DNA from: a virus
Taxonomy: Duplodnaviria > Heunggongvirae > Uroviricota > Caudoviricetes
Length of the DNA: 64,000 nucleotides
Strand: one strand, 5' to 3'
IMG/VR virus record: IMGVR_UViG_3300021255_002129
Below the pieces are notes generated by a model. The model was not told the origin of the DNA. It saw only the letters and a program-made list of their open reading frames with translations, and made no database searches. Below are positions 4,970 to 49,976 of the stretch, in pieces (position 1 is the stretch's first letter; every line of letters starts with the position of its first letter). The translations under genes were made by a program, and so were the position numbers.

Positions 4970-4972
4970 GAT

Positions 4973-31294: not shown

Positions 31295-32743
31295 ATGAAT
31301 TTAATATTATTAGGAATTATTATTGCAGTAATTATTTTAGTGAGCATATTAGTTGCTGTTAGTTATGTAAAATGCCCGCCCGACATGGTATTTTTAATCT
31401 CAGGTATTAAAAAAGAGCCTAGAGTTATTACAGGAAAGGCCGCATTTAGAATACCTTTCTTTGAAAGGATAGATAAAATACCTTTAAAATTAATTCAAAT
31501 AGATGTTAGAGCAAACAGAGTTCCAACAAATGATTTTATTAATGTTGATGTAGATGCAGTAGCAAATGTAAGAATTTCAACTAAAAATGAATTAATACAA
31601 ATTGCTGCAAAACATTTCTTAAATCAAACAACAAAAGATATTGCAACTAATGTTCAACAAATACTTGAAGGTAATATGCGTGAGATTATTGGACAAATGA
31701 TACTTACTGATTTAGTAAATAATAAACAATTATTCTCACAAAAAATACAAGAAAATGCAATAGATGATATTGAAAAATTAGGACTTGAAATTGTAAATTT
31801 AAATGTTCAAAATGTATCCGATGAAAATGGAGCTATTACAGATTTAGGAATTGATAATCTATCACAAATTAAGAAAAATGCTAAAATAGCAAAAGCTCAA
31901 GCTGATAAAGAAGTAAAAGTTGCTGAAGCGGCGGCAGATGAAGAAGGAGCTCGTGCACGTGCGGAAGCTGACGAAAAAATAGCAGAACAACAAAAAAATT
32001 TATCAATTAAAAAAGCCGAATACAAAATTGAACAGGATAAAAAACAAGCTGATGCAGATGCTGCATATGATATCCAAAAAGCAATACAACAAAAAACTAT
32101 TAACGAAAAACAAGTTGATGCTCAAATAACTAAAACTGAAAAATCAACTGAATTAAAACAAAAAGAAGTCGCTCTAAAAGAGCAAGAACTTGAAGCTGAA
32201 ATTAAAAAACAAGCAGATGCAGAAAAATACGCTGCAGAAATCCAAGCTGAAGTTGATAAAACTCGTGCTATAAAAGCTGCAGAAGCTAAAGCCCAAGCTC
32301 GTATTGCTGAAGCGGAAGCAGAAAAAGAAGCCAATATTAAAGAAGCTGAGGGAATTAAAGCAAAATTATTAGCAGAGGCCGAAGGTAAAAAAGCTATCCT
32401 TCAAGCTGAAGCAGAAGGTATTCGTGCTAAAGGTGTTGCAGAAGCTGAAGGTATTGAAAAGAAAGCTGAGGCTCAAAAGAAAATGGGTGAAGCGTCTATC
32501 GTTGAAATGATTATGAATGCCTTACCACAAGTTGCAAAAGAAGTATCTGCTCCATTAGCTAACGTAGATAATATTACAATGTATGGTGACCAATCAACTA
32601 AACTTATTGAAAATAATACACAAAAAATAGACCAAGTATTAAAAGTAGCTCAAGATAGTTTAGGATTAGACTTAAAGAGTCTTATAGCAGGGTTTGCCGC
32701 AAATAAAGTAATACAAGATAATAAAAAGAAAAGTGATGAATAA
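31295..32743 (+). CDS. SPFH/band-7 flotillin-like membrane protein
   Basis: N-terminal TM segment, an SPFH core ('KCPPDMVFLISGIKK...') and a long Ala/Glu/Lys-rich coiled coil typical of FloT/YuaG. Confidence 0.8.
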   Translation: MNLILLGIIIAVIILVSILVAVSYVKCPPDMVFLISGIKKEPRVITGKAAFRIPFFERIDKIPLKLIQIDVRANRVPTNDFINVDVDAVANVRISTKNELIQIAAKHFLNQTTKDIATNVQQILEGNMREIIGQMILTDLVNNKQLFSQKIQENAIDDIEKLGLEIVNLNVQNVSDENGAITDLGIDNLSQIKKNAKIAKAQADKEVKVAEAAADEEGARARAEADEKIAEQQKNLSIKKAEYKIEQDKKQADADAAYDIQKAIQQKTINEKQVDAQITKTEKSTELKQKEVALKEQELEAEIKKQADAEKYAAEIQAEVDKTRAIKAAEAKAQARIAEAEAEKEANIKEAEGIKAKLLAEAEGKKAILQAEAEGIRAKGVAEAEGIEKKAEAQKKMGEASIVEMIMNALPQVAKEVSAPLANVDNITMYGDQSTKLIENNTQKIDQVLKVAQDSLGLDLKSLIAGFAANKVIQDNKKKSDE

Positions 32744-32823: not shown

Positions 32824-33768
32824 ATGAATGATAAAATAGATATAGTAGTTACATACTTAAATGATCAAGACCAGCAGTGACAAGAAGAATTTAATAAATA
32901 TAAACAATATGAAGTTTCTAAAGGATGAATAAATCCCAATAGTATTCAAGCCTTCGGAGAAGAAAGAATAAGAAATTGAGATTTTACTCAGTATTGGTTT
33001 AGAGGAGTAGAAAAATGCTGCCCATGAGTTAATAAAATATTTTTTATAATTCAAAATGAACATCATATTCCAGAATGATTAAATACTACTAATCCAAAAA
33101 TTCGTATAGTATATCATAATGAGTTTATACCAAAAGAATTATTACCTACATTTAATCCTATGACTATTGGATTATATATTAATCAAATTAAAGATTTAAG
33201 CGATAATTATATTATGTGTGACGATGATTATTTCTTTTTAAATCCGATAGATGAAACTAAGTTTTTTATAAATAATAAACCTCAGCATGAAGATAACCAA
33301 GCTCCATATGGATACTTTTACGATGGTGATGAATTTTTACATATAATGAATAATTGCTTTGATTTTGAAAAAAAATATGACGATGGTAAAACAAAATATC
33401 ATTTTTATCATTTACCGACAGCAAGAAATAAAACATTAGAACAAAAAATTTTAAAAGATAATTATAATGATATATTAAATTCTCAAAGAGTTAGTAGATT
33501 TAGATACCCAACTAATTTAGATGCAAATATTTATTCTAATATTTTAAAATTAACTCACAATGCAGATATCCTACCAAAAGGTACTATCTATGGAAATAGT
33601 GCTTATGTTGCATTACAACCAAATATTGATTTTTATCAATATAAAGATAAAGAAATGGTTTGTTTCAATGACGTAGATTTAGTAACAGGGCATTTTGAAG
33701 AAATACAAAAATCTCTTATTGAATTTTTAAAATATAAATTCCCAAATAAGAGTTCGTTTGAGGTGTAA
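32824..33768 (+). CDS. Stealth-family (CR1-CR4) sugar-phosphate transferase; at least six in-frame TGA
   Basis: 'IDIVVTYLNDQDQQW' (CR1-like) and '[37 protein letters not shown]' (CR2-like). In frame with track ORF 33160..33768. Confidence 0.6.
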
Positions 33769-33770
33769 AA

Positions 33771-34565
33771 ATGAAAGAAAAATTTTTTAGTGTTATAATT
33801 CCTAATTACAATAATTCAACATATTTAGAAAAATGTTTAAAATCAGTATTAAATCAAACTTTTACTAATTATGAATTAATTGTAATAGATGATGTTTCAA
33901 CAGATAATAGTGTTGAAATAATTAAAAATATTTTTAATGAATACAAAGATAAAGATACAAAATTAATTGAATTAAAAGAAAAAGCTTGAAATGGCGGTAG
34001 CCGCAATATTGGTATTAAACAAGCTACCGGAAAATATTTTCTATTTTTAGATAGCGACGATTGATTTATGAATAATACTATATTCCAACAAGTCTATGAT
34101 TTTATCATAAGTAAAAATAACCCAGAATTAATTAGACTTTCTTTTGATATATTAACAAAAGATAATTGGCAATTTACAGTATGACTAGATGAAAAAGATT
34201 TAGATGAATTAGCAAATACTTGTTATGTAGCTTCTTGAATAAAATGCATTAGAGCAGATAAAATGATACCCTTTGAAGAAGATACATTAATGGAAGATGC
34301 AATTCAACATATTAAACAAATTGATGTCTTAACTAATTTTGAAGTTTTAAAAATATCCGCCGTATGTCATAATACTCAAAATCCAAATCAATGTAGCTCA
34401 CAAGAAAATAAAAAATTACAAGATGCTAAATGAGAAAAATCAATGCATAAATTTTATCAAAGTTTATTAGATTTAAAATGTAATCACGACTATTGTGAAA
34501 AAAGAAGATTATGAAAAATAGAAGAAGCAAAAGGCCATATTGAAAGAGGAGAGGCTTGACAATAA
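33771..34565 (+). CDS. family 2 glycosyltransferase (GT-A); about seven in-frame TGA
   Basis: 'FSVIIPNYNNSTYLEKCLKSVLNQT...IVIDDVSTD' followed by 'FLDSDD'. Confidence 0.7.
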
Positions 34566-35140
34566 TGAAATTATCAATAATAACACCATATTATAATTGT
34601 CTAAACTATCTTCAAAACTTAGTAAAGGTTTTAGAACCACAATTAACCAATGAAGTCGAATGAATTATTATTGATGATGGCTGCCATGAACAAGAACTTG
34701 ATAAAATTAAAGCAACTATAATACATTTATTAAATAATAGCGGATGTGCAGGAGTCCCTCGCAATTATGGATTAGATATTGCAAAAGGAGATTATATAAC
34801 TTTCGTTGATGCAGATGATTTAGTTTCTAAAGATTTTGTATCTAAAATAATAAATAAAATAAATTTAACAACATTTGATTATTGTTTAATGAGTTGAGAA
34901 AAAATAGATAAATCATTTTATGTAGACGTAACAACTGGAAGACCAGATTGAAACTGTAGTGTGTGAGGTATTATATATAACAAAAATAATTTAAAAAATG
35001 TGCGTTTTAATAATAAAAAATTTGCAGAAGATTATGATTTTAATCAAATAGCATTAAAAGGAAAAGAAGAGAGAATACTTGATTACTTATATTTTTATAA
35101 TAGCAATGAAAATGGACTATCTGCAAATTGGGAAGGATAG
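34565..35140 (+). CDS. family 2 glycosyltransferase (GT-A); four in-frame TGA
   Basis: 'LSIITPYYNC...IIIDDGC...FVDADD'. The ATG overlaps the preceding TAA. Confidence 0.7.
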
Positions 35141-35143
35141 AGT

Positions 35144-36256
35144 ATGGAAAATCAAGAACAATTTTATACAAATATATTCTATTTTGATAGAATAAATAAA
35201 ATAGGCGGAGTTGAGACTTTCTTTTACGAAATAGCAAAAAAATATTGTAATAATGATATTACTGTATTTTATTCTTTTGGAGATTTAAAACAAATCCAAA
35301 GATTAAAAAAGCTTATAAGAGTAGTTAAATACACAGGACAAAAAATAAAATGTAAAAAAGCATTTTTCAATTACAGTTTAAAGCCTATCGACAATATACA
35401 GGCGGAAAAATATTATGAAATTATCCATGCTAATTATAAAGATTTAGGTATTTATCCTAATGTTAGTCCAAAAATAGATGAATATATTGGAGTTAGTCAA
35501 TCTGTATGCAATGCATTTACAGAATTAACTGGTTTACCTTGCACGCTATGTTATAACCCAATTACAATAGATAAGCCTAAAAGAGTATTATATCTTATTT
35601 CTGCAACTAGATTAACAAGAGAAAAAGGAAAAGATAGAATATTAAAACTTGCAAAAGCATTAGATGATGCGAAAATCCCCTATGTTTGAACTATATTTAC
35701 AAATGATACTAAAGAGATAAAACATCCCAGAATAATCTTTATGGAGCCACAATTAAATATTAGAGATTATATCGCTAAATCAGATTATACTGTTCAATTA
35801 AGTGATACAGAAGCTTATTGTTACACGATGATTGAAAGTTTATTATTAAACGTCCCTATTATTGTAACTCCATGAAAATGTTTAAAAGAGTTAAATATAA
35901 CAGAAGAATATGGATTTATATTACCTTTTGATATGGAAGATATTCCTGTAAAAGATATTTATAATAAAGAATTTAATTTTAAATATAAATTAATTCCAGA
36001 TACTTGAAATAAAATAATTGAACCAAGCAAATCTACTTATCAAGAAGAATTAAATGCCAAATATATTGTAGAAGCATTAAAAACATATCAAGATAGAAAT
36101 TTCAAAGATGTTCAATTAGGAATTATTCCTAGTCCTGGTTCTAGATGGACGGTTACAAAAGATAGATTGGATTTATTGTTAGGAGAAAATGAAAATCAAG
36201 AGGCTTATGTAAAATTAATTGACATAGTTAAAGATGATAAAGGAGATGATATATAA
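35144..36256 (+). CDS. GT-B fold (GT1/GT4-like) glycosyltransferase; three in-frame TGA
   Basis: 'GGVETFFYEIAKK', 'ISATRLTREKGKDRIL' and an E-X7-E-like 'ESLLLNVPIIVTP' motif. Confidence 0.65.
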
Positions 36257-36762
36257 TGAATATCTTATCATTAGACCTTTCAACCAAATCAAGCGGCTGA
36301 GCTTATTTTGAAGATGGAGAACTTAAAGATCATGGATGCATTACATCTGCATCTACTGATTTAATTAAAAGAATATATATTATGAGAGATGGGATTGCGG
36401 AAATCCTTGATAAATATGCTGTAACCAAGATTGTTGTAGAAGAAGTTAGACCTGAAGGTGGTTACGGAGTAGGCAATACAAAAACTCATCGAGCTTTAAT
36501 GTGACTTCAGGCAGCAACCGCATTTTTAATTCATGATAATTACCCTTCTATTGAAATAGAATATATATATCCAAGTTCATGACGTGCAGCTTTAGGTATT
36601 AAAAATGGTCGCGGAATAAAGAGGACATCATTAAAAGAGCAAGATATACAATATGTTCAAGATAAATATAATATAAATGTAAATGATGATGAAGCAGATG
36701 CAATATGCATAGGTTTATCACAATATAAAGAAAAAGATGATAATGAAATAAATTGAGCATAA
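36256..36762 (+). CDS. RuvC-like Holliday-junction resolvase; three in-frame TGA
   Basis: 'LSLDLSTKSSGWAYF' (RuvC motif I-like) and 'DDEADAICIG' (catalytic Asp pair). It is the last gene before the convergent terminator. Confidence 0.7.
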
Positions 36763-36801
36763 AAAAAAAGAGGTGGATTAATTTCCACCTCTTTTTTATT
36801 T
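36762..36801. terminator. bidirectional rho-independent terminator at the early/late convergence point
   Basis: A7-AGAGGTGGA-TTAATT-TCCACCTCT-T6ATTTTTATT: a perfect 9-bp stem flanked by an A-tract and a T-tract. Confidence 0.8.
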
Positions 36802-36804
36802 TTA

Positions 36805-37380
36805 TTATAATTCAGCTACAGTTTTTACATTAGTTAAATTAGAAAATTTACTTGTTATCCATCTTTTTGCATTATCATCTGCAACAATTATTTTACAATC
36901 ACTAGGTACGCTATTAAACATTCCAGTATATGAAGTAACATTACCAAAATTAAAATTGCGAATATCTAATAATGTTAATCTTTCACAATTTGCAAACATA
37001 TAGCTCATATCCGTAACCCTATTAGTATTAAAATTACTTAAATCTAAATTAATAATATGATTACAAGCATAGAACATATATCTCATATTATTAACATTTT
37101 CTGTATTAAAAGTACTTACATTTAAACTTGCTAAAACATCACAGTAATAAAACATTTGTGCCATAGTTGTCATTTTAGAAGTATCTAATGCAGCCAATTC
37201 AGGATTTAAGTCTCCTCCCTTATATTCCCTAAAAGATATAAATCTTGGAGAGTATGTAGTAGTAATACTATCAATAGCTTCACTCATATCTTCTGGTTTA
37301 TATTTAGTTGTATTTCCTTTTTTGCCACGAATACTATTTGCAATATTAGTTAAGTATTCTTTAGTTACTAATACTTTCAT
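36805..37380 (-). CDS. DUF285 (BspA/'Mycoplasma-type') repeat protein
   Basis: Tandem ~25-aa repeats such as 'NFNTNRVTDMSYMFANC' and 'NMRYMFYACNHIINLDLSNF' are characteristic of PF03382. Confidence 0.6.
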   Translation of the reverse strand: MKVLVTKEYLTNIANSIRGKKGNTTKYKPEDMSEAIDSITTTYSPRFISFREYKGGDLNPELAALDTSKMTTMAQMFYYCDVLASLNVSTFNTENVNNMRYMFYACNHIINLDLSNFNTNRVTDMSYMFANCERLTLLDIRNFNFGNVTSYTGMFNSVPSDCKIIVADDNAKRWITSKFSNLTNVKTVAEL

Positions 37381-37919
37381 TAAAATTCCACCTCGTCTCC
37401 ATCGATAATTGAATTAATTGCTGCCTCGATTGCCGCTTTCATTTCACTAGTAGTAGGATAATTTGATAAATCAACAGTTTGTGTTCCTAATTTTTCCCAT
37501 TGAGTTGTATATATATATTCATCATATAAATTACTTGTTTCTCCACTATTATTAGGTACTAAATATACAGTAGTTGTACTTATATCTAAAACAGGTAACG
37601 TTTCTACAACAGCAATAGCAAATTTAGGGATAACACTAATCATATTATCTACTTCTGCTTTTGTATATCTGTCATCAATTTCTTCTCTTAATTCAGTATC
37701 ATCATATTCAACTGAGTCCCCTTTTGGACCTTTTAATATAGGAGAAGTATATACATTTCCATTAGTTAAAGTTATTATTAATTCATACTCCGCATTCATT
37801 GTGATTGATGCAATACCTACACCATCTTCACCTTTAGGACCAGCGACACCTAAGTTAGCAAGAGTTAAACCTTTAATTTTATTTCCTGTTTTTCCATTTA
37901 AATCTGCCATCCTACGCAT
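37380..37919 (-). CDS. hypothetical protein with short collagen-like G-X-Y stretches
   Basis: Contains 'GVAGPKGEDGVG' and 'GPKGDS'. Confidence 0.45.
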   Translation of the reverse strand: MRRMADLNGKTGNKIKGLTLANLGVAGPKGEDGVGIASITMNAEYELIITLTNGNVYTSPILKGPKGDSVEYDDTELREEIDDRYTKAEVDNMISVIPKFAIAVVETLPVLDISTTTVYLVPNNSGETSNLYDEYIYTTQWEKLGTQTVDLSNYPTTSEMKAAIEAAINSIIDGDEVEF

Positions 37920-38298: not shown

Positions 38299-38369
38299 AA
38301 TATCCAGCCTCCTTTTGAATCTTCTATTTATAAATAAAAACTATCTTTTGTATATTTATTATTTTTACC

Positions 38370-38407
38370 CAAAAAAAAGAAAGCTACAACTAAATATGTT
38401 GTAGCTT
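38370..38407 (-). terminator. rho-independent terminator (minus strand) followed by a conserved TTTTGGGTAAA element
   Basis: AAGCTACAAC...GTTGTAGCTT hairpin, then a T-tract on the minus strand. Confidence 0.6.
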
Positions 38408-38704
38408 ATAGAACACTTTATTTGTTATATTAATTATTTCTTCGCCATAAGTAGCAATAATATCTGCAATTACTTCTTCCTGTTCAAGAGAAAGATAGAC
38501 ATTATAGGAGAACATTGCGGCATGCACTAACTCATGACAAATAACTTTCTTTAGCATACTTCCTTCTAAATTCTCTGCTAAATATATGGTTTTAGTATCT
38601 TTATCGCACATTCCTAATGTACGAACTCCATCCTCGCGGATAAGTATCTCATCTCAAGGATGAACGAATTTCACTCTCCATCCTATTCCATTAATTGTAA
38701 TCAT
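38390..38704 (-). CDS. ImmA/IrrE-family (DUF955) zinc metallopeptidase-like protein, one in-frame TGA
   Basis: HEXXH motif 'ICHELVHAAM' with upstream 'GWRVKFVHPW(TGA)DEI...IYLAENL'. It is extended 5' of track ORF 38390..38611 through the TGA to the ATG at 38702-38704. Confidence 0.55.
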
Positions 38705-39291
38705 TATTTAATTTTTTCTGCTAAAGTGCTTAATTTTTGAGAAAGAATTTCTTTTTCTTCTGGAGTGGCATCATTAATCATTTCCATCATATCTCCGCTT
38801 AATTCTTTCATATATTTTTCTAATTCCATCATTTGTTTTTCTTTTCCTTCATGCATTTCTTTAGATTCCATATACATACGTCTTGAATTGCCACTTCTAC
38901 CTTCGCGGTAATCTCTTAATTCTCTAGGATATACATTTCCATAGTCACGCATTCCGCGGCTATATGCATCTCCATAGTAATAAGGTTCAGGATAATAATA
39001 TCTACCATCTGAATATCCTCTTCCATTACCACGAGCGTTATTTCCCACAGAACCACTTGACATATCTCCACCATTATAATACATAACTGGATAATACATC
39101 ATATTACGAGTTGGTTCTTTTTCTTTATCTTCCATTGCTTCTACGACAGTGCAATAATAAATAGTTTCCTCCAAGTCTTTAATCATATCAACAACTTCGC
39201 CTAATTCTTCAGCATTAGTTTTTGATAAATCTCCCATTTGGCTTTCTACACAAGACATTAGTCTTTCTTTCATTGCTTTTAATCTCTCCAT
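38704..39291 (-). CDS. hypothetical Tyr/Gly/Arg-rich intrinsically disordered protein
   Basis: Low-complexity core 'YYPVMYYNGGDMSSG...RGNGRGYSDGRYYYPEPYYYGDAYSRGMRDYG' flanked by helical Met/Glu/Lys-rich ends. Confidence 0.45.
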   Translation of the reverse strand: MERLKAMKERLMSCVESQMGDLSKTNAEELGEVVDMIKDLEETIYYCTVVEAMEDKEKEPTRNMMYYPVMYYNGGDMSSGSVGNNARGNGRGYSDGRYYYPEPYYYGDAYSRGMRDYGNVYPRELRDYREGRSGNSRRMYMESKEMHEGKEKQMMELEKYMKELSGDMMEMINDATPEEKEILSQKLSTLAEKIK

Positions 39292-39292
39292 A

Positions 39293-39718
39293 TTACGCCA
39301 CCCTTTCCACGATTAAATTAGCGTTTTCCACTAATATATCGTCTGCACTTGTATTTTCTACACTAACTTGAGCGCAACATCCTGCAGGAACATCAATATT
39401 AACATCTCTGCTTACATTGAAAAATTCTTCTACTGCAGCTGGAGTAACTATCATTTTTGTACTAGCAACAGGTTCTCCATCAATAGCAATAGCTACTGAA
39501 ATTGCATCTACAGTTCCTCCTGTTGGTATAGCGATATTACCTCCAAAAGACACTTTAAATCTTGCACGAGGTTGGCAGCAAGTTAGTCCTCTTAAAGAAA
39601 CTAACCCACTTCCATCTCTATGCATTATGGAGTTATTACCACGCACTGGGGTATCTGTAAATAAAATAACTTGATTTGGTTCAACTGTTTGTTGAGCCAC
39701 AGCTGTAAATTCTGCCAT
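39293..39718 (-). CDS. hypothetical protein, possibly a TNF/C1q-like beta-sandwich, with paired Cys-Cys motifs
   Basis: 'LRGLTCCQPRARFKVSFGG' and 'PAGCCAQVSV'. The fold assignment is a guess. Confidence 0.4.
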   Translation of the reverse strand: MAEFTAVAQQTVEPNQVILFTDTPVRGNNSIMHRDGSGLVSLRGLTCCQPRARFKVSFGGNIAIPTGGTVDAISVAIAIDGEPVASTKMIVTPAAVEEFFNVSRDVNIDVPAGCCAQVSVENTSADDILVENANLIVERVA

Positions 39719-39745
39719 ATTTTTATTACCTCCATTTAATTAATT

Positions 39746-40579
39746 TTAATAATTATAGTTGTTAAAGCATCCACCATTGCAGCAATAAGGATTTGGTACA
39801 TTATATGCTGGGATTGGACATGGTCTTAATTGGTCAACTAAATAATTATTTTGTGCGGCTTGAGATGCAGCAAATTTTAATGCTTGATTTTCATCTCTTA
39901 AATCAGCCATCTTATCACTAGTTAATCTATCTAAGATAGCTCTAGTGTTTGCGTTTTGATTTTCTACGATGTCTCTAGTTTGGTCGCAAATATCTTGTCT
40001 AATTCCATTTACTTGAGTTGCTAAGTTGTAATTAGTGTCTGAGAAACCTTTTTCAACTTGGTATCTCATATCGCAGCAGCAACTAGCCATTTGATTTCCT
40101 AATGCAGTAATTTGTGAACCAATAGCATAAGTATTTTGCATATTATTAACATTAACGTCATTAATACCAGATTGTAATTGATATCCTAAATTAGATATAT
40201 TGGTATTAATTGAATTAACACCACTATTAATAGTACCATTTAAATCACAAATACCTTGAATAACATTTGTAGATAAGTTATGATAATCATTACTTAAGTC
40301 TACTCTAGTATCTCTAACTGCATGGTCTAAATCAGAGAAGTTAATTTCATCGGTTAAATCGGCTCTAGTTAAAGCACCTTGCATTGCGGCACTATTGAAA
40401 CTTCCATTTCCGTTACCGAACCAACCTCCATTTCCTCCCCATCCGCCAAATGCGAATAAGAATAAGATGATAATCCACCATCCATCTCCACCGAAGCCAT
40501 TACCAAAGAATCCGCCACGGTTTCCATCTGTTACTGCAGCTATATCTGCTAAACTGTAACCATTATTTGAGCTAAACAT
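39746..40579 (-). CDS. hypothetical Gly/Trp-rich membrane protein with Cys-rich C-terminus
   Basis: 'GFFGNGFGGDGWWIIILFLFAFGGWGGNGGWFGNGNG' (TM segment), 'ASCCCDMRY' and 'PYCCNGGCFNNYNY'. Confidence 0.45.
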   Translation of the reverse strand: MFSSNNGYSLADIAAVTDGNRGGFFGNGFGGDGWWIIILFLFAFGGWGGNGGWFGNGNGSFNSAAMQGALTRADLTDEINFSDLDHAVRDTRVDLSNDYHNLSTNVIQGICDLNGTINSGVNSINTNISNLGYQLQSGINDVNVNNMQNTYAIGSQITALGNQMASCCCDMRYQVEKGFSDTNYNLATQVNGIRQDICDQTRDIVENQNANTRAILDRLTSDKMADLRDENQALKFAASQAAQNNYLVDQLRPCPIPAYNVPNPYCCNGGCFNNYNY

Positions 40580-40619
40580 ACAAACTCTCCTTTCCTATAA
40601 ATATATTATATCTATATCT

Positions 40620-40871
40620 TTAAAGCTTAAAGGTATCCCTAAAAGCTTTAAATTCTTTATCATAATCCATACCACGCTCTTTAGCAATATTACGAACAAC
40701 TTTTTCTATTTCTTCTGTTTTTCCTTCTTTGATTAGATTTGCTAAATTTTGCATGATTGGATTTCCTTGACTTGCAGCTTCATTAACCATGTTTGAAACA
40801 AGAGCTGATGGATCTTGACTCTTAAAGCTACTAATCAATCTAAACATATCTTGAGGACTTCTAATAAGCAT
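40620..40871 (-). CDS. hypothetical protein (83 aa)
   Basis: ORF overlapping the upstream gene's end by 11 nt. Confidence 0.4.
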   Translation of the reverse strand: MLIRSPQDMFRLISSFKSQDPSALVSNMVNEAASQGNPIMQNLANLIKEGKTEEIEKVVRNIAKERGMDYDKEFKAFRDTFKL

Positions 40872-41274
40872 TTACTTTCACATCCTTTGCGGCGGCAGGT
40901 GCTGCAGGCGTAGGGGCTTGCTTTGCCGTACTATTCATCAACGCATCTAATTTTTCATTTAAAGCATTGATTTTTTCTAATAATTCATCTCTTGATGAGA
41001 TTTCTTTTGCTTCCTTAGTTTCCTCTACAGGAATAGGTTTATAAGTGTTGATTTGAGTAGTTCCATTATTATTCCATGACTTGACATAGATTTCACTTAG
41101 GTCTCCTTTTGGGAATACTCCAAATCCGCCAAATGGAACTTCATTCACTCTAACCATATCTACGCTATCAACCACTTTTCCTTGTAATGCGGCAACCGCA
41201 GGTTGAGCTTGTTGAGGCTGATACATATTGCCATACGAATAGTTTTGATAAAAATTATTTGGATAATAGTTCAT
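40861..41274 (-). CDS. hypothetical protein with Q/N/Y-rich N-terminus
   Basis: 'MNYYPNNFYQNYSYGNMYQPQQAQP'. RBS GAAAGGAG, with a TATAAT-like element just upstream. Confidence 0.45.
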   Translation of the reverse strand: MNYYPNNFYQNYSYGNMYQPQQAQPAVAALQGKVVDSVDMVRVNEVPFGGFGVFPKGDLSEIYVKSWNNNGTTQINTYKPIPVEETKEAKEISSRDELLEKINALNEKLDALMNSTAKQAPTPAAPAAAKDVKVNAY

Positions 41275-41480
41275 AATTTTAAATACTCCTTTCTATTATA
41301 TCCTTTCCTTTCACTAATATCTGAGTTTTTATCAAAACTTATTTTTCAAGTTTGACTAAGTTTTTATTAAAACTTTTAAATTTAGCAGGTAGTAAATTTT
41401 ATTTACAACTTACGATTAAAAGTTTATCATTACAAACAAAAAAATGCTCAGAAAGTGGAAATTAATCCAAATTCTGAGCA

Positions 41481-41520
41481 TAAAAAAAGAGGATAACTTA
41501 ATTTTATAAGTTATCCTCTT
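41481..41520 (-). terminator. rho-independent terminator (minus strand)
   Basis: Perfect 13-bp stem AGAGGATAACTTA/TAAGTTATCCTCT flanked by an A/T tract. Confidence 0.65.
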
Positions 41521-41797
41521 TACTAACTTGTATAGTATAATCTATAATACTATTTTCATCTGTATTTTGAGCAAAATATATTGAAGTAATTTCAGTATTT
41601 CCTATTTCATAAATACCTGTTTTACCAATTTCATATTCTTTGCCATTTATATAAATGTAATTTCTTACATCAGTTTGTACACCAATATGACTCACATAGT
41701 CGATCGGATAGGCGGCTGCCGCAACTATTTTATCATATAATTCATCATTTGCAGTGAAAGGCCCGATTAATTGACCTGTATATCCATTAACGCCCAT
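41504..41797 (-). CDS. small tail-fibre-like protein (97 aa)
   Basis: C-terminal 'EIGKTGIYEIGNTEITSIYF' motif is shared with the 43085..43789 protein. Confidence 0.45.
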   Translation of the reverse strand: MGVNGYTGQLIGPFTANDELYDKIVAAAAYPIDYVSHIGVQTDVRNYIYINGKEYEIGKTGIYEIGNTEITSIYFAQNTDENSIIDYTIQVSKEDNL

Positions 41798-43808: not shown

Positions 43809-45860
43809 CTAAAATCTTTCTAAAGCTCTTGTAGCTGATATTGACATCGTACTACTTATATCAAGAGGAATAGAAATACTTGAAATCATATAATCTCCAT
43901 AAATATCACTTTCAATATCCCTAACCCCAATTCTTGTATTCGGTTCTAAATGATAGATTGGAATACTTTGAATAGTAATACTTTCATTATAACTTGTATA
44001 TTCATGCAACATCATTTTTATTTCATTAAATGCTGAATTGGATGTTCCACCAAGAGCAAGTAAGTTAAATATTCCTGTAGTTACTTGAATATAGTTTTGA
44101 CCTTTAGCTTCACATTCTGCGCGTTTTTCATCAGTATCAGGTTGACCTAATTCTATAATAATAAAATCAGGTATATCTGGTTCAAATACGCAATTTATAT
44201 CATTTCTATTAACGACTTGACTGCGGCGACCGATATTACGAACACTGAACTTCGATATTGCTGCAGCAGAGTCTATAAAATCTAAATAGTAATCTATATC
44301 ACTAGGTGTTTTTAAGACCTCATCATAAAAGCCACCTGTATAAATAGTTTCACCTTTATCATCTATGTAAAAATCCTTTTGTAGATTATACAGCTTTGGC
44401 CACTCGTTCATTAATTCAGTATAGTAGTAATTAGAATCTATGCCCAGTGGCTCAGCTTGAACTCCTTGTAAATATAATTCACTTCTTCAATCTGTTGTTT
44501 TAACTTTAACAAATTGAGTTGTTTCACTATCTACTTCAACATATTGTTTTAAATCTCCATCTCAATAGTAAATAGTTCCTGTACTAGTGTCTTTATAATA
44601 TACACCTGCCGCACCATCAGTTTTAACTATTTCTGCATAACTACTATATAATATAGGCATTTTTGCTTTTGTTAATCCATCATCTGGGTCTTCATAGAAA
44701 AATACATCATATATATTTCCAATAGCAGGTTTAGTATCAATAGCTAAATGATATCTAATAGGAACATCGTTACCATTAGCATTTTTTCTAATTCCCCAAA
44801 CTACAAAATCATTTTTAATTTTATTAAATTGAGGACTATTAGAAAATGATGTAACTAAATTACTATTATTAAATTCATATACTGTTTTACCTTTACTAGC
44901 ATCAATTAAATAATCATTCTTATTCATTGTTTCTAAATCTAATGTTGCTTTTGTTGTGTTTAAATAATTTTTAATTTCTTGCCAATGAAAATTTCCTTCT
45001 GTATCATAAAAATATTCATAATTACCTAGCATATTTTTAATTTTATCTAAGATAACACACACATTATCTCCAGCATTTCCAATTAATTCACTAGGGCAAG
45101 TAAAGTTTGTAAACATATAACCAATATCTTCACCATACTCAAACATTTGATAAGTATGACCCGCGGCGTCCGCATAATTAGTTGACATTGTGTATGAACC
45201 ACTATCTTCAATTAAATACAATGGTGTATTTCCAATTCATTTCATTACTTTTTTTATTCTTGAAGGTACATCAGATATAATTATCTTACTTAATTGTTCT
45301 CCTCCAAAATGATTAACTACCTCCCTAATAATTTGTTCAAAGGTAGGTTTTGATATAACTCAATTTCCATTCTCGTCAATGGTTTCATATTGATCGAATT
45401 GCGTTGATGCAGGAATCACACCTCCGCATTCTCCATTTAACAAACACATTTTATCTCTTAATGAAACTTGTAATGAAGCTCCTCCAGTCGAACGGCTTAA
45501 TGAAGGAGCTATCATAACAAATGTCCCTTGTGGAAATCAAATCTTTTTATGTCTAATATATTGGTCTGTTGTATTAACATAACCAATTTCTAAATACATT
45601 TTTTTATTTATTGAAAACAAATTATCTAAACTTGTTATATTTGCATTTTCTTCTTTATCTATATAGCAAGATAAATTGACAGTTCTTCTTACATTTGAAT
45701 TACCATCTAAATTAAGATTGCCACCTGTTACAATTCCTTGAACTTCTTGTATAGGTCTTTCTTCTCAATCTAATATGGTGATTTTAACAAACTGTTCTTT
45801 TAAATGTTCATTATCTATTAGTTCTAAAAAACTTTTATCACTAGAATATTCATATACTTT
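43809..45860 (-). CDS. large tail tip/baseplate hub (Tal-like) structural protein, 683 aa with at least five in-frame TGA
   Basis: Continuous hand translation from the ATG at 45858-45860 (overlapping the upstream TAA) to TAG at 43809. It incorporates track ORFs 44562..45221 and 43809..44411, which share a frame. Confidence 0.5.
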
Positions 45861-48800
45861 TTTCATTACTCTGCATACCTACCTTTCATAATTTCACAAT
45901 GATAATCAATCAAGGCTTCAACAGGACAAAGTAAATCATCATTATTTGTAAATAGCCATCATTGGTCATTATGCCAAATAAATCTACTATTTGCTTCATC
46001 TATTAATCTTTGTAATATTAAAGCATATTGTCTATCTATTTCTTTATTTAATACTAAATGATAATAATCATCATAAGCTCTATCTAAACTAATAGTATAT
46101 GTTGAACCTAATTTTGACAATTGATCTGGATCTGTGGAAGCAGTCGCCTCATCAGGCCACTGTTCACGAGATTTCATTATATAAACTCCATCTCTATATT
46201 GTCTATCACCTGTTGGTATTAAATCTTCTTCATGATTTAAATTATTTTGAGTTTCATTTTCCTCATCTTTAGTTCCATCAATATATAATGAGCCTGTCCA
46301 TACATCTCCACCAACTTGTTCAATTCATTCTTCGTCTACTATTAATCCACCATCATCATCAATAGGTTGCAATACTCTATCAAATAATAATGTATAACTT
46401 GATGAAGGATGTTCTATATTATCTTGATTAACTGATGCAGTGTATTGTTCTGGTCATTGTTCTTTAGATTTAATGCTATATCATCCAGCAAATTGGTCAA
46501 TAGCTTCTAAATAATCATCTGCAAGAGTATAAACCCCATTTTTAATTAATTGAGATGTATCACTTACATATTTATCTAATATTATATTTGTTTCAATATA
46601 TTTATTATCGGGTAATGTTTCTCTTTCTTGCTCTGCGGCAGTAGCAGGTTCAAGATGGATACCAGCGAAATATAATCCCTCAATAGCAGAGCCCTCCGCA
46701 TCAAGAGCTAAAGTATGTGTTGGTCCAATAACATGTCTTTCAAAATCTGTATCTGCAGACTCTTTAACAAATATTACAGTACCTGGTTCAGCTTCAATTT
46801 TTACTCCATCTAAAGATAACATTATTTGTTGATAATTTGAATATTTTTCAAAATATTTATTCCATATATTTTGATAGATTGAATCATTTGGTTTAAATGC
46901 TCCTCATTTTTGTCCAACTCTTCTATAAAAACTACTAGTTTGAAATACTTTACTAGTATCTTCAGTTTGTTGTAAATTAATATGGTACTCTAAATTAACT
47001 TGAGTATCAACAGGAAAAAATAATGAAGTAATTTCTACGTTCTCACCTTTTAATTCATATATACCTTCTGGATTTATTATAATAGGTTTATTATTAACAT
47101 AAACTAAATAACCTAAGATTGCGGAATCTGGATTTTCTTTATCATCACCAAGATCATCTACTACACAGGGGCCATCTTCACCCTCTTTAATTAGGTATGG
47201 GTCACTTTCAAATTCTAATCTTAAGAAATCTAAATTTTGAATTGCAATTTTATAATTTTCTTTTGCATATTTTTCATATTTCTTTTGAATTAAACTTAAA
47301 GCCTCTGTATTTGCAGGTATTATTTCATTATATTGTCCTACATAATCACTAGCAAATTGTAATAATGTATCATAAGTTCCTAATGGAGAAATATTATATT
47401 TATCATAATTTTTAATTGTTGCCGCATCCACTTCATAAGCAGTTGCTGTAAATGAATATATTCTTCTACCTAATGTTGAATTAGGTGTTAAATTAATATC
47501 CATAATTTTAACAAGTATATTTCCTTCAGTAGCTGACCTGAATAATCTAACTTTATTTGCATATAAGAAATCCATAACTTTTTCTCTGAATTCACGCTCA
47601 TAAGTCCAATCGTTAAAATCATCTATTCTTACATTTTTATCTTTATTAAATTCAATATAATTATCTAGGCTGTCTCTAAACATTTCTTCTTTTGATGTTA
47701 TTAGATGTGATGGATCCATTAAATGAGTTATCGTACCTCCAATAGGAAATTGTCTATATTCAACATAGCCATTTCTTTTAATATATGGATATTTACTTCC
47801 TATTGTATCTGTGCGGGATTCACTTACTGTACGTTTGAACGAACTTACTGATGGATCAAATCTAATATTAAGTTGCCCATCTCCGCCAGTTAAATACATA
47901 TCATCAAATAACATCATGAATGGTTCATCCTCTGCGTGAATTGCGATACCTCTATTTCCAACACTACTTCTTCTTTGTGCTATATATTTATAATACACTC
48001 CACTTTTAATAGTATAGTCATATCAAGTATAATTTAATTTACTATTTTCTTCAAAAGACTCTGTATGAACATCTTCTCATATTGTAAAATTACTTTCACT
48101 TGATGTTCTTCTAATAGTTATATTACCAATAAAAGAATCGTCATCATCTTTGCTTTTAACATTAAGTACAATACAACCATTAATATTATCAAGAGTAGCA
48201 GTTAATGTAGCTTCAAGTTTATCAGCGTTTTCTTGGACTACCATAAATTCATATGTATCTTTTTCAGTATACATATTAGCAGTTTCATATTCAAAAGTAA
48301 AATAATAGCTTTCTCCTTCATTAAAAGCATATTCAAAAGTATAGTTAAATTCATTAATATTAAAATAAATATTTGAATATATTACACCACTATCTGATAA
48401 TAATTGATTATTTATATCGTATAATTTTATTTGATAACTTTTTAATGTATCTGTTTCCGCGGAATCCGCATATGTTAATCTACCAACCACATCTACATTA
48501 TTTAATGACCATAACGTTGTGTCTGCGGAAATATCGAATCCTGAAACACTAAGACTAGGTACACTAATCCCTCTAACTAAACATACTGTTGATCATTCAG
48601 AGAAGTTTGATAAATTTGCAGCAAGCCAGCTATCGATCGCTTGAGGCGTGTTTAAAGATACATCGGCGGCGCCTGCCGCAGTAAATCTAATTTGAACTTT
48701 GTAATATTGATTTATTTGAAAACCTTCTTCAATATCACTAGTTTTTATCTCAATATAATATTTATTATCTGATACTCTTGTTAAATCAGTTTTAATGTCA

Positions 48801-49024
48801 GTTAACATAATTTCACAAGGATATTTGCTTTTATCTAATACAGATAAATTGGTATTTTGATTAACAACTGTTACTTGTGCATTTTTTATATCATTTAAAC
48901 TATTATATAAAGAAATAGAGAAATATACTCTACAAGTATTTTTTTGTATATCACTACTTCCTACTAAAAACGCAGGCATGTAGGTATCCACAACTGGTGG
49001 ATATAAATTAATATTAACTGCCAT
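45861..49024 (-). CDS. very large tail/baseplate structural protein (~1054 aa, Dit-like position) with at least five in-frame TGA
   Basis: Track ORFs 48593..49024, 48077..48490, 46904..47998, 46481..46822 and 45959..46177 all share a frame and are each bounded by TGA. Gaps read without TAA/TAG. An internal repeat 'KSKEQWPEQYTAS'/'KSREQWPDEATAS' is present. Confidence 0.5.
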
Positions 49025-49055: not shown

Positions 49056-49508
49056 TTACTTATTTTCTTCTTTTTTATGAATTACTGATACTATTGGTAA
49101 TACTCTTATATCTTTCATAAAACCATCTATAAAAGTATTTCCGTTTTCTTCTTTATAATGTTTGTATCTAGCTTCTATACATTGAAGATTATAGTCATCA
49201 ATATAACCTAAATCATAACAAAAATAATGATGTTTTTCAGTAATCCAAGCTTTAATATCGTCTTTATCTGACTCTATTAAAACACTAATTGATTTAGCCA
49301 TTTTATCAATTTGTTTATTATGTGATTCTAACGTATCTATCATCTTTTGATGTAATTCTTCTACCGATTGTTGCTTACTTGTTGTTTTTGTTATTCTATT
49401 TTTTGCTCAATCATAAAAATCAACAACACCCTTAATAGCAAATGCTAACATTACAACAAAAATAGCTATATCAGTTAATGAATAATTTTTAAGTAAATCT
49501 AACATTCT
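49056..49508 (-). CDS. N-terminally membrane-anchored protein (150 aa), one TGA; possible lysis-associated protein
   Basis: Strong RBS GGAAGGAGATATAGA, then ATG. TM segment 'IAIFVVMLAFAIKGVV', then 'DFYDW(TGA)AKN...', in frame with track ORF 49056..49343. Confidence 0.45.
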
Positions 49509-49589
49509 ATATCTCCTTCCTATATAATTCTCATAATTCTATCTAATAATATATAAAAGTTACAGAAGAAAGATTAGATAAATTAGACC

Positions 49590-49630
49590 AAAATAAAAAA
49601 GATACTTTGCTTTATAAAGCAAAGTATCTA
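49590..49630 (-). terminator. rho-independent terminator (minus strand)
   Basis: GATACTTTGC...GCAAAGTATC hairpin with a flanking A/T tract. Confidence 0.6.
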
Positions 49631-49867: not shown

Positions 49868-49943
49868 AAATTAAACCTCCTTTTACGTCTTTGTTTCTAA
49901 TACTATGTGAAAAAGGATTAATTAAGATGGGTTATTTTTGACC

Positions 49944-49976
49944 AAAATAAAAAAGAGGAGTATTTAGTTACTCCTC
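49944..49976 (-). terminator. rho-independent terminator after the holin gene
   Basis: GAGGAGTA-TTTAGT-TACTCCTC with a flanking A/T tract. Confidence 0.6.

What the first reader, a model, noticed from the sequence alone, without database searches (positions are those of the whole stretch)
38704..41274. Cluster of unusual low-complexity proteins: a YG/RG-rich disordered protein, a Gly/Trp-rich membrane protein with Cys-rich tail, a CC-motif beta-sandwich candidate, and a Q/N/Y-rich protein
Four consecutive late genes encode proteins of atypical composition: 'YYPVMYYNGG...RGNGRGYSDGRYYYPEPYYYGDAYSRGMRDYG'; 'GFFGNGFGGDGWWIIILFLFAFGGWGGNGGWFGNGNG...PYCCNGGCFNNYNY'; 'CCQPRARF...PAGCCAQV'; and 'MNYYPNNFYQNYSYGNMYQPQQAQP'. 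This composition is reminiscent of spore-coat or exosporium proteins or of phase-separating and cross-linked (di-Tyr/disulfide) assemblies. They may form a proteinaceous layer or decoration, or be morons affecting host envelope or sporulation.
Basis: partly seen in the sequence, partly recalled or inferred. Interest (0 to 1): 0.55.

Follow-up and report, generated by a model that had tools for sequence, protein, structure and literature searches.

The report
Conserved mobile phage operon, function unknown
The odd-composition genes are real and form a six-gene operon found in thousands of gut phages and prophages, with one protein folding like the knob proteins on bacterial spore surfaces, but no part of it has a known function.

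Summary
The four flagged ORFs, an 83-aa ORF between them and a downstream 104-aa HExxH gene form one minus-strand unit (41274→38390), bracketed by two terminator hairpins. The host genome is a large low-GC gut phage that reads TGA as Trp.

The same collinear cassette recurs in 92 loci:
- A: Q/N/P/Y-rich protein.
- B: small Q/N/M-rich helical protein.
- C: Gly/Trp-flanked hydrophobic anchor, ~170-aa helix, invariant CCC, Pro motif and Cys/Gly/Tyr tail.
- D: Cys-pair β-protein, or an unrelated Cys-rich β-protein D2.
- E: helix, R/G/Y/S/D-rich linker, helix.
- Often a small peptidase.

Carriers include Butyrivibrio phage Ceridwen, Clostridium perfringens phages, Clostridia prophages and 124–158 kb phage contigs. 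Diverged versions occur in crAss-like and Bacteroides phages, and C alone in Methanomassiliicoccales viruses. C has 2,789 representatives at 50% identity.

D models confidently as a C1q/TNF jelly roll closest to spore-surface proteins F-BclA, BclA and ExsFA. Nothing matches Pfam, NCBIfam, PADLOC or PDB by sequence.

My best reading (about 0.4) is a self-assembling, cross-link-prone stalk-and-knob structural assembly made late in infection. A spore-specific role is contradicted by non-sporulating hosts. The function remains untested.

The parts
41486..41521 (-). Terminator-like hairpin (15-bp stem followed by a T run) ending the preceding transcription unit, immediately upstream of the cassette
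   Evidence: sequence read
41459..41471 (-). TTTGGATTAATTT: one copy of a motif (TTTGGNYWAAWWT) that recurs upstream of minus-strand late units. Candidate shared promoter element; the motif was defined post hoc.
   Evidence: 7 hits against 1.5 expected, 0 of 100 shuffles reach 7. Six hits are on the minus strand; five are intergenic just upstream of transcription units.
40861..41274 (-). Gene A (137 aa): Q/N/Y-rich N-terminus, conserved ~55-aa central domain, C-terminal helix. PHROG 21718, unknown function.
   Evidence: Found in 77 of 92 loci. No signal peptide or TM segment.
40620..40871 (-). Gene B (83 aa): small helical protein of a Q/N/M-rich family. Overlaps the end of gene A by 11 nt.
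   Evidence: Found in 79 of 92 loci. The Ceridwen homolog is PHROG 22984.
39746..40579 (-). Gene C (277 aa), the core of the system. Conserved N-terminal MFxSNxGYSLADIAA, Gly-rich flanks around the hydrophobic WWIIILFLFAFGGW segment, ~170 aa of long helix, invariant CCC (residues 167-169), the motif RPCPIPAYNVPNP, and the Cys/Gly/Tyr/Asn tail CCNGGCFNNYNY. PHROG 16490.
   Evidence: Found in 91 of 92 loci. 2,789 representatives at 50% identity.
39293..39718 (-). Gene D (141 aa): stand-alone C1q/TNF-like jelly-roll protein with conserved Cys pairs (C47-C48 here; C114-C115 invariant). PHROG 20016.
   Evidence: Found in 61 of 92 loci. Replaced by the unrelated Cys-rich beta-protein D2 in 25 loci.
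38704..39291 (-). Gene E (195 aa): conserved N-terminal helix, variable R/G/Y/S/D-rich disordered linker, conserved C-terminal helix.
   Evidence: Found in 71 of 92 loci.
38390..38704 (-). Gene H (104 aa): minimal HExxH metallopeptidase-like protein (CHELVH). Its start ATG overlaps the stop codon of gene E. One in-frame TGA (38656-38654) is read as Trp.
   Evidence: The family was found in 27 of the 92 loci; 24 of its 29 matching ORFs lie within 400 bp of gene E (three of the 24 are the window and near-identical contigs L003 and L005).
38381..38407 (-). Terminator-like hairpin (10-bp stem followed by a T run) closing the cassette

Best explanation
The region is a self-contained, horizontally mobile phage operon, A-B-C-D-E-H. 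In this phage it is transcribed with the late tail, fibre and lysis genes. I propose that it builds a multi-protein structural assembly in four steps.

1. Protein C oligomerises through its ~170-residue helical region into a stalk. One end is anchored by the Gly/Trp-flanked hydrophobic segment, either in the cytoplasmic membrane or in a hydrophobic core.
2. The conserved Pro-rich motif and Cys/Gly/Tyr tail at C's other end engage protein D. D is a trimeric C1q/TNF-type knob of the stand-alone ExsFA kind. It acts as a docking hub, and the conserved thiols (CCC and the tail in C; the Cys pairs in D or D2) lock the contacts by disulfide or metal bridging once conditions allow.
3. Proteins A (Tyr/Gln/Pro-rich) and E (Arg/Gly/Tyr/Ser/Asp-rich), each carrying conserved helices, self-associate through their low-complexity segments to form a matrix or adaptor layer. 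B is a small adaptor.
4. The small peptidase (H here, a papain-like P elsewhere) matures one of the components.

All soluble parts lack export signals, so assembly starts in the cytoplasm, as it does for virions and for spore coats. The most likely destination is the released particle (virion, or virion plus membrane debris), where the assembly would act as a fibre or coat that aids survival or adhesion in the gut.

Shown: the operon structure, its conservation and mobility, D's fold, the conserved motifs and composition, and the absence of signal peptides.

Inferred: the oligomeric states, the C-D contact, cross-linking, expression timing, the destination and the benefit.
For: Operon structure:
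- Six co-directional, tightly packed or overlapping genes are bracketed by two terminator-like hairpins.
- The unit is preceded by a motif shared with other late units.
- It is embedded in the tail/fibre/lysis block: CHAP endolysin, pectate-lyase-like tailspike, tape-measure-like protein.

Conservation:
- The order (P)-A-B-C-(D or D2)-E-(F/H) is collinear in nearly all of 92 loci.
- Genomic positions and neighbours vary, which indicates a functionally autonomous module whose parts work together.
- C has 2,789 representatives at 50% identity. The best 150 listed are 126-340 aa, so there are no domain fusions.

Fold of D:
- pLDDT 85, pTM 0.81.

Conserved motifs:
- CCC in 83 of 84 full-length C proteins.
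- At least 3 Cys in the last 30 residues in 75 of 84 C proteins.
- CC in 55 of 58 D proteins.
- D2 has about 9 conserved Cys.

Low-complexity composition is conserved well outside background: A median 0.63 against 0.27, E 0.80 against 0.43, B 0.53 against 0.27.

No signal peptide or TM segment in A, B, D, D2, E or H.

Docking analogy:
- ExsF, a stand-alone TNF-like trimer, binds Pro-rich leader peptides of fibre proteins in its trimer clefts (PMC12357932).
- C carries P-[VI]-P-[AS]-[YF]-x-V-P 18-43 residues from its C-terminus. The strict pattern is found in 34 of 84 C proteins and in 0 of 1,207 background ORFs.
Against: - There is no experimental evidence of any kind for any family member: no virion proteomics, no expression data, no literature.
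- The C model is of low confidence (pLDDT 50), and its membrane topology is undetermined because there is almost no K/R on either side of the hydrophobic segment.
- C's tail motif does not change between loci with D and loci with D2. A specific tail-D contact is therefore not supported by covariation.
- D2 is not detectably related to D.
- In two cultured phages the cassette lies next to early, recombination or replication genes rather than structural genes. That argues against a strictly structural role.
- A virion add-on that fits siphoviruses, crAss-like phages and archaeal viruses alike would need a generic attachment mode, and none is evident.
- The promoter-like motif was defined after seeing the data.
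- The BclA leader motif comparison rests on a sequence recalled from memory.
Confidence: 0.4

Rival explanations
1. Intracellular organiser. C sits in the cytoplasmic membrane with its helical domain inside the cell. A (prion-like Tyr/Gln-rich) and E (Arg/Gly/Tyr-rich) form a membrane-tethered condensate or scaffold that concentrates phage replication, assembly or packaging. D is a client or adaptor.
For: - All partners lack export signals. C's acidic, K/R-poor N-side would be compatible with an N-out, C-in orientation.
- The Tyr-rich plus Arg-rich composition of A and E is conserved. It matches the sticker pattern known from phase-separating proteins (established knowledge, not tested here).
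- The cassette lies beside replication or recombination genes in C. perfringens phage 17DYC and Bacteroides phage C3_41T2LP.
Against: - The C1q/TNF fold is overwhelmingly used on surfaces of viruses, spores and cells.
- Dense conserved cysteines are unusual for a cytoplasmic scaffold.
- The cassette is accessory, present in only some members of each phage group, so it cannot be core replication or assembly machinery.
Confidence: 0.2
2. Conflict system. The cassette is a membrane-associated superinfection-exclusion, abortive-infection or anti-defence module carried as a portable accessory operon.
For: - It is an autonomous, mobile, accessory unit with variable neighbours. In temperate phages it sits at the classical moron site between the lysis genes and the integrase.
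- It is accompanied by small HExxH peptidases of the type found in phage conflict proteins. The Bacteroides phage homolog is annotated as PolyVal metallopeptidase superfamily.
- There are weak coiled-coil hits to ZorA.
Against: - No significant PADLOC or NCBIfam match. The ZorA hits are far below threshold and cover only the coiled-coil region.
- No NTPase, nuclease or sensor-type domain is present.
- The structural-protein-like composition and fold are atypical for defence systems.
- The cassette is present in virulent phages within late structural blocks.
Confidence: 0.15
3. Lysis or egress accessory. C acts at the membrane with the holin and endolysin, for example by controlling timing, remodelling the membrane or releasing particles. 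The soluble partners regulate it.
For: - The cassette directly follows holin and endolysin genes in Ceridwen, Dulem virus 33 and bajarodcaudo virus 5. It follows lysis genes in crAss-like cr116_1.
- Lysis-type genes (holins, GH25, amidase, M23) recur among its upstream neighbours.
- C's N-terminal YSLADIA resembles YSLTDIA at the N-terminus of the window's holin-like 149-aa protein (not followed up).
Against: - The adjacency is not consistent.
- In this window the endolysin is 10 kb away.
- No partner has a lipoprotein or signal sequence, as a spanin-like system would need.
- A 170-residue Cys-rich helix plus a TNF-like knob and two low-complexity proteins has no precedent in lysis systems.
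Confidence: 0.08
4. Spore-surface moron. Prophage-encoded coat or exosporium-like proteins are incorporated into host spores.
For: - D's best structural matches are F-BclA, BclA and ExsFA.
- The composition resembles coat proteins.
- Many carriers are prophages of spore-forming Clostridia. Sigma-factor-like genes lie upstream in 3 of 29 sampled loci.
Against: - The complete cassette is in a phage of non-sporulating Butyrivibrio fibrisolvens. Versions occur in crAss-like and Bacteroides phages, and the core gene in viruses assigned to archaea.
- It is present in virulent phages.
- No sequence homology to any coat or exosporium family.
Confidence: 0.07
5. The ORFs are chance low-complexity reading frames or decaying genes with no function.
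For: The genome is AT-rich and has many spurious ORFs.
Against: - Thousands of homologs with conserved motifs, lengths and gene order across phyla.
- Composition is conserved against background.
- A confident fold for D.
Confidence: 0.01

Closest known systems
ExsFA/BxpB (ExsF) of the Bacillus cereus group exosporium
   Different: There is no detectable sequence homology. D has conserved Cys pairs. D is encoded by phages, many of whose hosts do not sporulate. No ExsY/CotY-type basal-layer partner is present.
BclA and F-BclA C-terminal domains (Pfam BclA_C, TNF/C1q superfamily)
   Different: BclA proteins carry an N-terminal leader and a long collagen-like stalk in the same polypeptide. D is the knob alone. 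Any stalk would have to be the separate coiled-coil protein C. There is no Pfam BclA_C match.
Phage and viral fibre tips with C1q/TNF-like knobs (collagen-C1q fibres, PRD1 P5, cyanophage A4 and A-1(L) fibres, lactococcal phage 1358 receptor-binding protein)
   Same: Same fold class, used at the distal end of a trimeric shaft. In this window the cassette lies among fibre-like genes.
   Different: In those proteins the virion-attachment domain, shaft and knob are one chain. Here the candidate shaft (C) has a hydrophobic membrane-type anchor. The knob is a separate gene. Three further conserved proteins of unusual composition belong to the unit.
TNF-ligand superfamily architecture (type II membrane anchor, stalk, TNF homology domain)
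   Same: C plus D together reproduce the order: N-terminal anchor, stalk, TNF-fold trimer.
   Different: The architecture is split over two genes. D has no export signal. There is no sequence relationship.
Disulfide-cross-linked endospore appendage subunits (Ena family)
   Same: D2, the alternative partner in 25 loci, is a small beta-type protein with an N-terminal Cys cluster (C-x4-C-x2-C) and further conserved Cys. That resembles the Cys-bearing N-terminal connectors of Ena subunits (my own recollection).
   Different: There is no sequence match of the D2 profile to any solved structure. The fold was not predicted. D2 is absent from this window.

Membership tests
C1q/TNF-like jelly-roll superfamily (protein D) | Compact ten-strand jelly-roll beta-sandwich superimposable on C1q, TNF and BclA C-terminal domains | tested here: met
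C1q/TNF-like jelly-roll superfamily (protein D) | Homotrimer formation | not testable with these tools
   Only single-chain prediction was available.
BclA-type exosporium glycoproteins (Pfam BclA_C) | Sequence match to the BclA_C family | tested here: not met
   No Pfam hit at E ≤ 1. No PDB sequence hit to BclA.
BclA-type exosporium glycoproteins (Pfam BclA_C) | N-terminal exosporium leader plus collagen-like GXY stalk in the same polypeptide | tested here: not met
   D is 141 aa and consists of the globular domain only.
   No Pfam, NCBIfam or PDB sequence matches for any cassette protein or its relatives.
   The full cassette is in Butyrivibrio fibrisolvens phage Ceridwen. Diverged versions are in crAss-like and Bacteroides uniformis phages. 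C is in Methanomassiliicoccales viruses.
Spanin-type lysis proteins (protein C as i-spanin) | N-terminal TM anchor with a coiled-coil domain, paired with an outer-membrane lipoprotein partner | tested here: not met
   The anchor and helix are present. No partner has a signal peptide or lipobox-like N-terminus. Most hosts are monoderm.
Zincin-like minimal metallopeptidases (protein H; ImmA/IrrE, SprT, PolyVal-type) | HExxH motif in a small alpha/beta domain with family-level sequence match | tested here: inconclusive
   HELVH is present and conserved. Pfam hits to DUF6782, SNF2_assoc, Peptidase_M78 and SprT-like are all below the curated cut-offs. PHROG 1233 matches at 4e-16 but has unknown function, and the peptidase PHROGs match more weakly.
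Known anti-phage defence systems (PADLOC) | Significant match of any component to a defence-system model | tested here: not met
   Only sub-threshold coiled-coil hits to ZorA, E 0.006-0.03.
TGA-recoded 'Agate'-type gut phages (the host genome of the cassette) | Genome of ~127 kb or more, with in-frame TGA read as Trp concentrated in structural and lysis genes and absent from core replication genes | tested here: met
   A 3.1-kb frame has 8 in-frame TGA and no TAA or TAG. The large replication genes tabulated (gyrase, ligase, helicase, polymerase, NrdD) have TGA counts of 0, against 1-8 in many late genes. TGA alternates with TGG in near-identical homologs. Identical proteins lie on contigs of 105-136 kb. 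The description is in bioRxiv 10.1101/2021.08.26.457843. Clade membership by phylogeny was not tested.

The most novel reading that the evidence does not exclude
A previously unrecognised portable operon is shared by viruses of Firmicutes, Bacteroidota and methanogenic archaea in animal guts. It builds an exosporium-like, thiol- and tyrosine-cross-linkable coat or appendage on virions or on virion-carrying membrane debris. The thiols stay reduced inside the anaerobic host and harden on release or on exposure to oxygen. The assembly would serve as armour or glue for gut-to-gut transmission.
Probability: 0.15. Interest if true: 0.85.

Novelty: categorically new. Interest (0 to 1): 0.62.

Why it matters
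Gut phage genomes are dominated by genes of unknown function, and most are orphans. This is instead a multi-gene system with a fixed architecture, very high prevalence and strong selection on unusual features: an invariant CCC, Cys-rich tails, and prion-like and Arg/Gly/Tyr-rich segments. It crosses phage morphotypes, host phyla and possibly domains. That pattern implies a general and important function that current annotation misses entirely.

If it is a particle coat or appendage, it would be a new class of virion accessory structure, relevant to phage persistence, transmission and therapeutic stability. If it is a membrane-tethered condensate or a conflict system, it would be a new mechanism in either field.

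It is directly testable, because at least three cultured phage-host pairs carry it: Butyrivibrio fibrisolvens with Ceridwen, Clostridium perfringens with 17DYC-type phages, and Bacteroides uniformis with C3_41T2LP.

Tried and rejected
Searches with no usable result:
- Nucleotide search of the region against GenBank phages: no match.
- Pfam, NCBIfam, PADLOC and PDB sequence searches with single proteins, relatives and family profiles for A, D2 and P: nothing significant.
- The AFDB fold library was unavailable.
- A genome scan with the most diverse C alignment failed for lack of a conserved block. It worked with a narrower alignment.
- Literature searches on Ceridwen, the C. perfringens phages, prophage BclA/C1q proteins and crAss 'spike protein' labels: no data on these genes.

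Leads tested and dropped:
- The faint DUF6847 hit of p195 is not a family property: 0 of 45 E members match.
- The sub-threshold Baculo_PEP_C hit of p277 (E 7.6e-4, 20 bits against a cut-off of 38) falls in the N/Q-rich helical region. I treat it as a composition effect.
- The structure model of p277 is too poor for fold search.
- D and D2 as remote homologs: rejected (hhalign probability 0.2%).
- Covariation between C's tail and the partner type: none seen.
- TGA avoidance in the cassette as a timing clue: too few Trp codons to judge.
- Upstream neighbours as a guide to function: heterogeneous.
- tRNA scan for a suppressor: none in this window.

That followed by construction from calling ORFs with only TAA and TAG as stops, so it should not be taken as evidence.


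Full report
**What is in the sequence.**
All ORFs named in the finding exist on the minus strand, with the quoted peptides. They are packed head to tail with an 83-aa ORF between p277 and p137.

Downstream lies an ORF first listed as 73 aa. Once TGA is read as a sense codon, this ORF is a 104-aa HExxH gene whose ATG overlaps the stop codon of p195.

Two terminator-like hairpins on the minus strand bracket exactly these six genes, at 41521-41486 and 38407-38381. I call the genes A (137 aa), B (83), C (277), D (141), E (195) and H (104).

The compositional oddities are real outliers within the window's 64-protein set:
- 60% Y+G+R over 40 residues in E. Other proteins reach at most 42%.
- 70% G+W+F in C. 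Other proteins reach at most 40%.
- Five of the window's eight CC dipeptides lie in the cassette.

**The genome around it.**
The window is ~29% GC.
- The plus-strand half encodes gyrase B and A, NAD-ligase, DnaB, PolIII alpha, NrdD and a flotillin.
- The minus-strand half encodes a tape-measure-like protein, large fibre and baseplate-like proteins, a pectate-lyase-like tailspike, a CHAP endolysin and a holin-like protein.

A 3.1-kb reading frame contains eight TGA and no TAA or TAG. TGA alternates with TGG at the same codon in near-identical relatives. The large replication genes tabulated (gyrase, ligase, helicase, polymerase, NrdD) contain no in-frame TGA, whereas many late genes contain 1-8. 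Identical proteins lie on contigs of 105-136 kb.

This matches the published TGA-recoded 'Agate'-type gut phages (bioRxiv 10.1101/2021.08.26.457843). It is a known phenomenon. Five of the six cassette genes contain no in-frame TGA, so their boundaries are unaffected.

**Conservation.**
- PHROGs place D, C and A in families 20016, 16490 and 21718, all of unknown function.
- D and C each have more than 7,000 related clusters at 90% identity, all unnamed.
- An exhaustive profile search finds 2,789 representatives of C at 50% identity (1,405 at E ≤ 1e-10). The best 150 listed are 126-340 aa, so there are no fusions to other domains.

Reading the neighbours of the C/D pair in distant phages showed the same ordered set of proteins with the same peculiar compositions, although sequence identity is low. 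These phages are Butyrivibrio phage Ceridwen, Dulem viruses 33 and 35, bajarodcaudo virus 5 and C. perfringens phage 17DYC.

A scan of 185,579 species genomes returned 173 relatives. I kept 80 loci:
- Prophages or phage contigs in Lachnospiraceae, Oscillospiraceae, Acutalibacteraceae and cultured Anaerotruncus colihominis, Agathobaculum desmolans and Enterocloster hominis.
- Contigs of 124-158 kb binned with uncultured 'Bacilli' and Anaeroplasmatales. Together with one 43.5-kb Clostridia-MAG contig (L012, 50% identity), these are the closest relatives, at 45-50% identity.
- A few contigs binned with Bacteroidota.

Local iterative HMMs over 92 loci gave these counts:

| Family | Loci (of 92) |
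|---|---|
| C | 91 |
| A | 77 |
| B | 79 |
| D | 61 |
| D2 (alternative, unrelated Cys-rich beta-protein) | 25 |
| E | 71 |
| Papain-like P, upstream | 37 |
| H | 27 |

The order (P)-A-B-C-(D or D2)-E-(F/H) is collinear almost everywhere.

crAss-like phages and the cultured Bacteroides uniformis phage C3_41T2LP carry a clear C homolog. It is followed by a different Cys-bearing beta-protein, a beta-plus-coiled-coil protein, a small helix plus R/D/Y-rich protein and an HExxH peptidase. The logic is therefore kept while the parts diverge.

Viruses assigned to Methanomassiliicoccales carry C with two CCC motifs but no recognisable partners.

**Where the cassette sits.**
Its position varies between phages:

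| Position | Phages |
|---|---|
| After holin/endolysin and before the integrase | Dulem 33 |
| After the lysis genes | Ceridwen, bajarodcaudo 5 |
| Between the portal/minor-capsid and scaffold/major-capsid genes | Dulem 35 |
| Between the lysis/small-terminase and capsid genes | cr116_1 |
| Beside antirepressor, recombination or replication genes | 17DYC, C3_41T2LP |
| Among tail-fibre-like genes | this window |

A bulk Pfam scan of 145 upstream neighbours was heterogeneous. In Ceridwen the unit is also flanked by annotated terminators.

In this window a motif, TTTGGNYWAAWWT, occurs seven times against 1.5 expected. Six hits are on the minus strand. Five lie in intergenic regions just upstream of minus-strand transcription units, including the cassette and the endolysin gene. 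The sixth lies just upstream of the ORF at 60207-61559. The motif was defined post hoc, but it suggests co-regulation with the late genes.

The cassette's GC (0.31-0.38; five of the six genes at 0.33 or above) is somewhat above the rest of the phage (typically ~0.29). That is compatible with horizontal acquisition.

**The proteins.**
- **C.** Its model is poor (pLDDT 50). The model and the alignments agree on a short conserved N-terminal helix, Gly-rich flanks around one hydrophobic segment, ~170 residues of long helix, an invariant CCC, a Pro-rich motif (P-[VI]-P-[AS]-[YF]-x-V-P) 18-43 residues from the end, and a Cys/Gly/Tyr/Asn tail.
- **A.** It has a Y/P/Q/N-rich N-terminus with a 'PPMxDxLAQLR' element, a conserved ~55-aa central domain and a 'YVTRxEFDAL' helix.
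- **E.** It has conserved N- and C-terminal helices around a variable-length R/G/Y/S/D-rich linker, with recurring 'GRYSRDG' and 'HYVRGHYSR' strings.
- **B.** It is small, helical and Q/N/M-rich.

The biased compositions lie far outside background in nearly all family members. That indicates selection on composition. None of A, B, D, D2, E or H has a signal peptide or TM segment. C's hydrophobic segment has almost no K/R on either side and a more acidic N-side, so its topology is open.

**Mechanism.**
No homology-based function is available. Pfam, NCBIfam, PADLOC and PDB sequence searches, including family profiles, were negative. The literature searches found nothing on these genes.

From the anatomy, I favour a stalk-and-knob structural assembly embedded in self-associating low-complexity proteins, with confidence about 0.4:
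- C forms an oligomeric stalk, anchored at one end by the hydrophobic segment.
- The Pro-motif and Cys tail at its other end engage the trimeric knob D.
- Conserved thiols lock the contacts.
- A and E form a matrix or adaptor layer through their Tyr/Gln and Arg/Gly/Tyr segments.
- H, or P elsewhere, processes a component.

The analogy is ExsF, a stand-alone TNF-like trimer that binds Pro-rich leader peptides of exosporium fibre proteins in its trimer clefts (PMC12357932). The strict form of C's motif occurs in 34 of 84 C proteins and in none of 1,207 background ORFs. It also matches 'PIPPFTLP' in the BclA leader, a sequence I recalled from memory, so this is a lead and not a test.

All soluble parts are made in the cytoplasm, so the assembly would form there, as virions and spore coats do. 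It could end up on released particles. The wide host range, spanning monoderms, diderms and possibly archaea, argues for a role tied to the particle or the shared gut habitat rather than to one envelope type.

**What weakens this reading.**
- There are no experimental data.
- C's tail does not co-vary with D against D2, and D2 is unrelated to D.
- In two cultured phages the cassette lies among early-type genes.

The spore-surface idea is contradicted as a general function by non-sporulating hosts.

**Novelty and verdict.**
It is a six-gene, terminator-bounded operon belonging to a very widespread, collinear and mobile cassette. All its families are unannotated, and only one of its proteins has a recognisable fold.

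I found no described system that it matches, so I rate it as categorically new in the sense of lying outside known kinds. Its function is inferred, not shown. Interest is 0.62.

Noticed in passing
window, whole; e.g. 45866-49024 (-), 43809-45866 (-), 57426-61370 (-), 32824-36762 (+), 38654-38656: TGA is read as a sense codon (Trp). One 3.1-kb frame has 8 in-frame TGA and no TAA or TAG. TGA alternates with TGG in near-identical relatives. The large replication genes tabulated have none, whereas late genes and a glycosyltransferase block have 1-8 each. No tRNA gene lies in the window. This matches the published TGA-recoded 'Agate'-type gut phages.
   Followed up: yes
window 38361-38373, 41459-41471, 49580-49592, 49934-49946, 52048-52060, 61628-61640 (all minus strand); 15540-15552 (+): The motif TTTGGNYWAAWWT occurs 7 times against 1.5 expected. 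Five of the six minus-strand copies lie in intergenic regions just upstream of minus-strand transcription units, several of them shortly after a terminator-like hairpin. It is a candidate late promoter element, defined post hoc.
   Followed up: partly
window 32824-36762 (+): Five consecutive genes are heavily TGA-recoded (3-7 TGA each). In related contigs they are called as glycosyltransferases (GT2, GT4) and a Stealth CR2-type protein. This is a phage-encoded polysaccharide-modification block next to the strand switch.
   Followed up: no
window 31295-32743 (+): The phage encodes a 482-aa SPFH/flotillin protein (Band_7 plus Flot domains) with no Trp codons at all. That is unusual cargo for a phage and possibly relevant to membrane organisation.
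   Followed up: no
window ~36000-37000: Cumulative GC skew peaks here and coding strand switches from plus to minus (convergent transcription). This is consistent with a replication terminus or origin boundary, as described for bidirectionally replicating Agate phages.
   Followed up: no
window 36805-37380 (-) and 37380-37919 (-): Directly downstream of the cassette lie a DUF285/BspA-type leucine-rich-repeat protein (E 8e-22) and a fibre-like protein with short collagen-like GxY stretches (PHROG 24103). They are probably host-recognition proteins.
   Followed up: no
window 49056-49505 (-) versus 39746-40579 (-): The holin-like 149-aa protein begins MLDLLKNYSLTDIAIFVVMLAF. Its 'YSLTDIA' resembles the conserved 'GYSLADIAA' N-terminal element of protein C. 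This may be coincidence or a shared membrane-insertion or interaction motif.
   Followed up: no
L001 7074-7448, L002 6334-6714 and 35 other loci (absent from the window): A ~125-aa protein (PHROG 3754) with invariant D-C...H...D/S residues, suggestive of a papain-fold enzyme, precedes gene A in 37 of 92 loci. Protease or transglutaminase activity on the Gln-rich A and B proteins would fit, but the fold was not predicted.
   Followed up: partly
L011 (Caudoviricetes sp. vir215, assigned to Methanomassiliicoccales) 4878-5759: The core protein C, with two CCC motifs and no Cys tail, occurs in viruses assigned to gut methanogenic archaea. It lies next to a reverse transcriptase and membrane proteins but without the other cassette genes.
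   Followed up: partly
window 38390-41274 versus the rest: The cassette genes have GC 0.31-0.38 (five of the six at 0.33 or above) and GC3 0.17-0.27. Most other genes have GC ~0.29 and GC3 0.10-0.16. This is compatible with horizontal acquisition or with the Gly-rich coding.
   Followed up: no
window 39746-40579 (-), residues 120-221: There is a sub-threshold Pfam hit to Baculo_PEP_C, the baculovirus polyhedron envelope protein (E 7.6e-4, 20 bits against a cut-off of 38). It is probably an effect of the N/Q-rich helix, but I note it because that protein forms a thiol-linked protective envelope around occlusion bodies.
   Followed up: no
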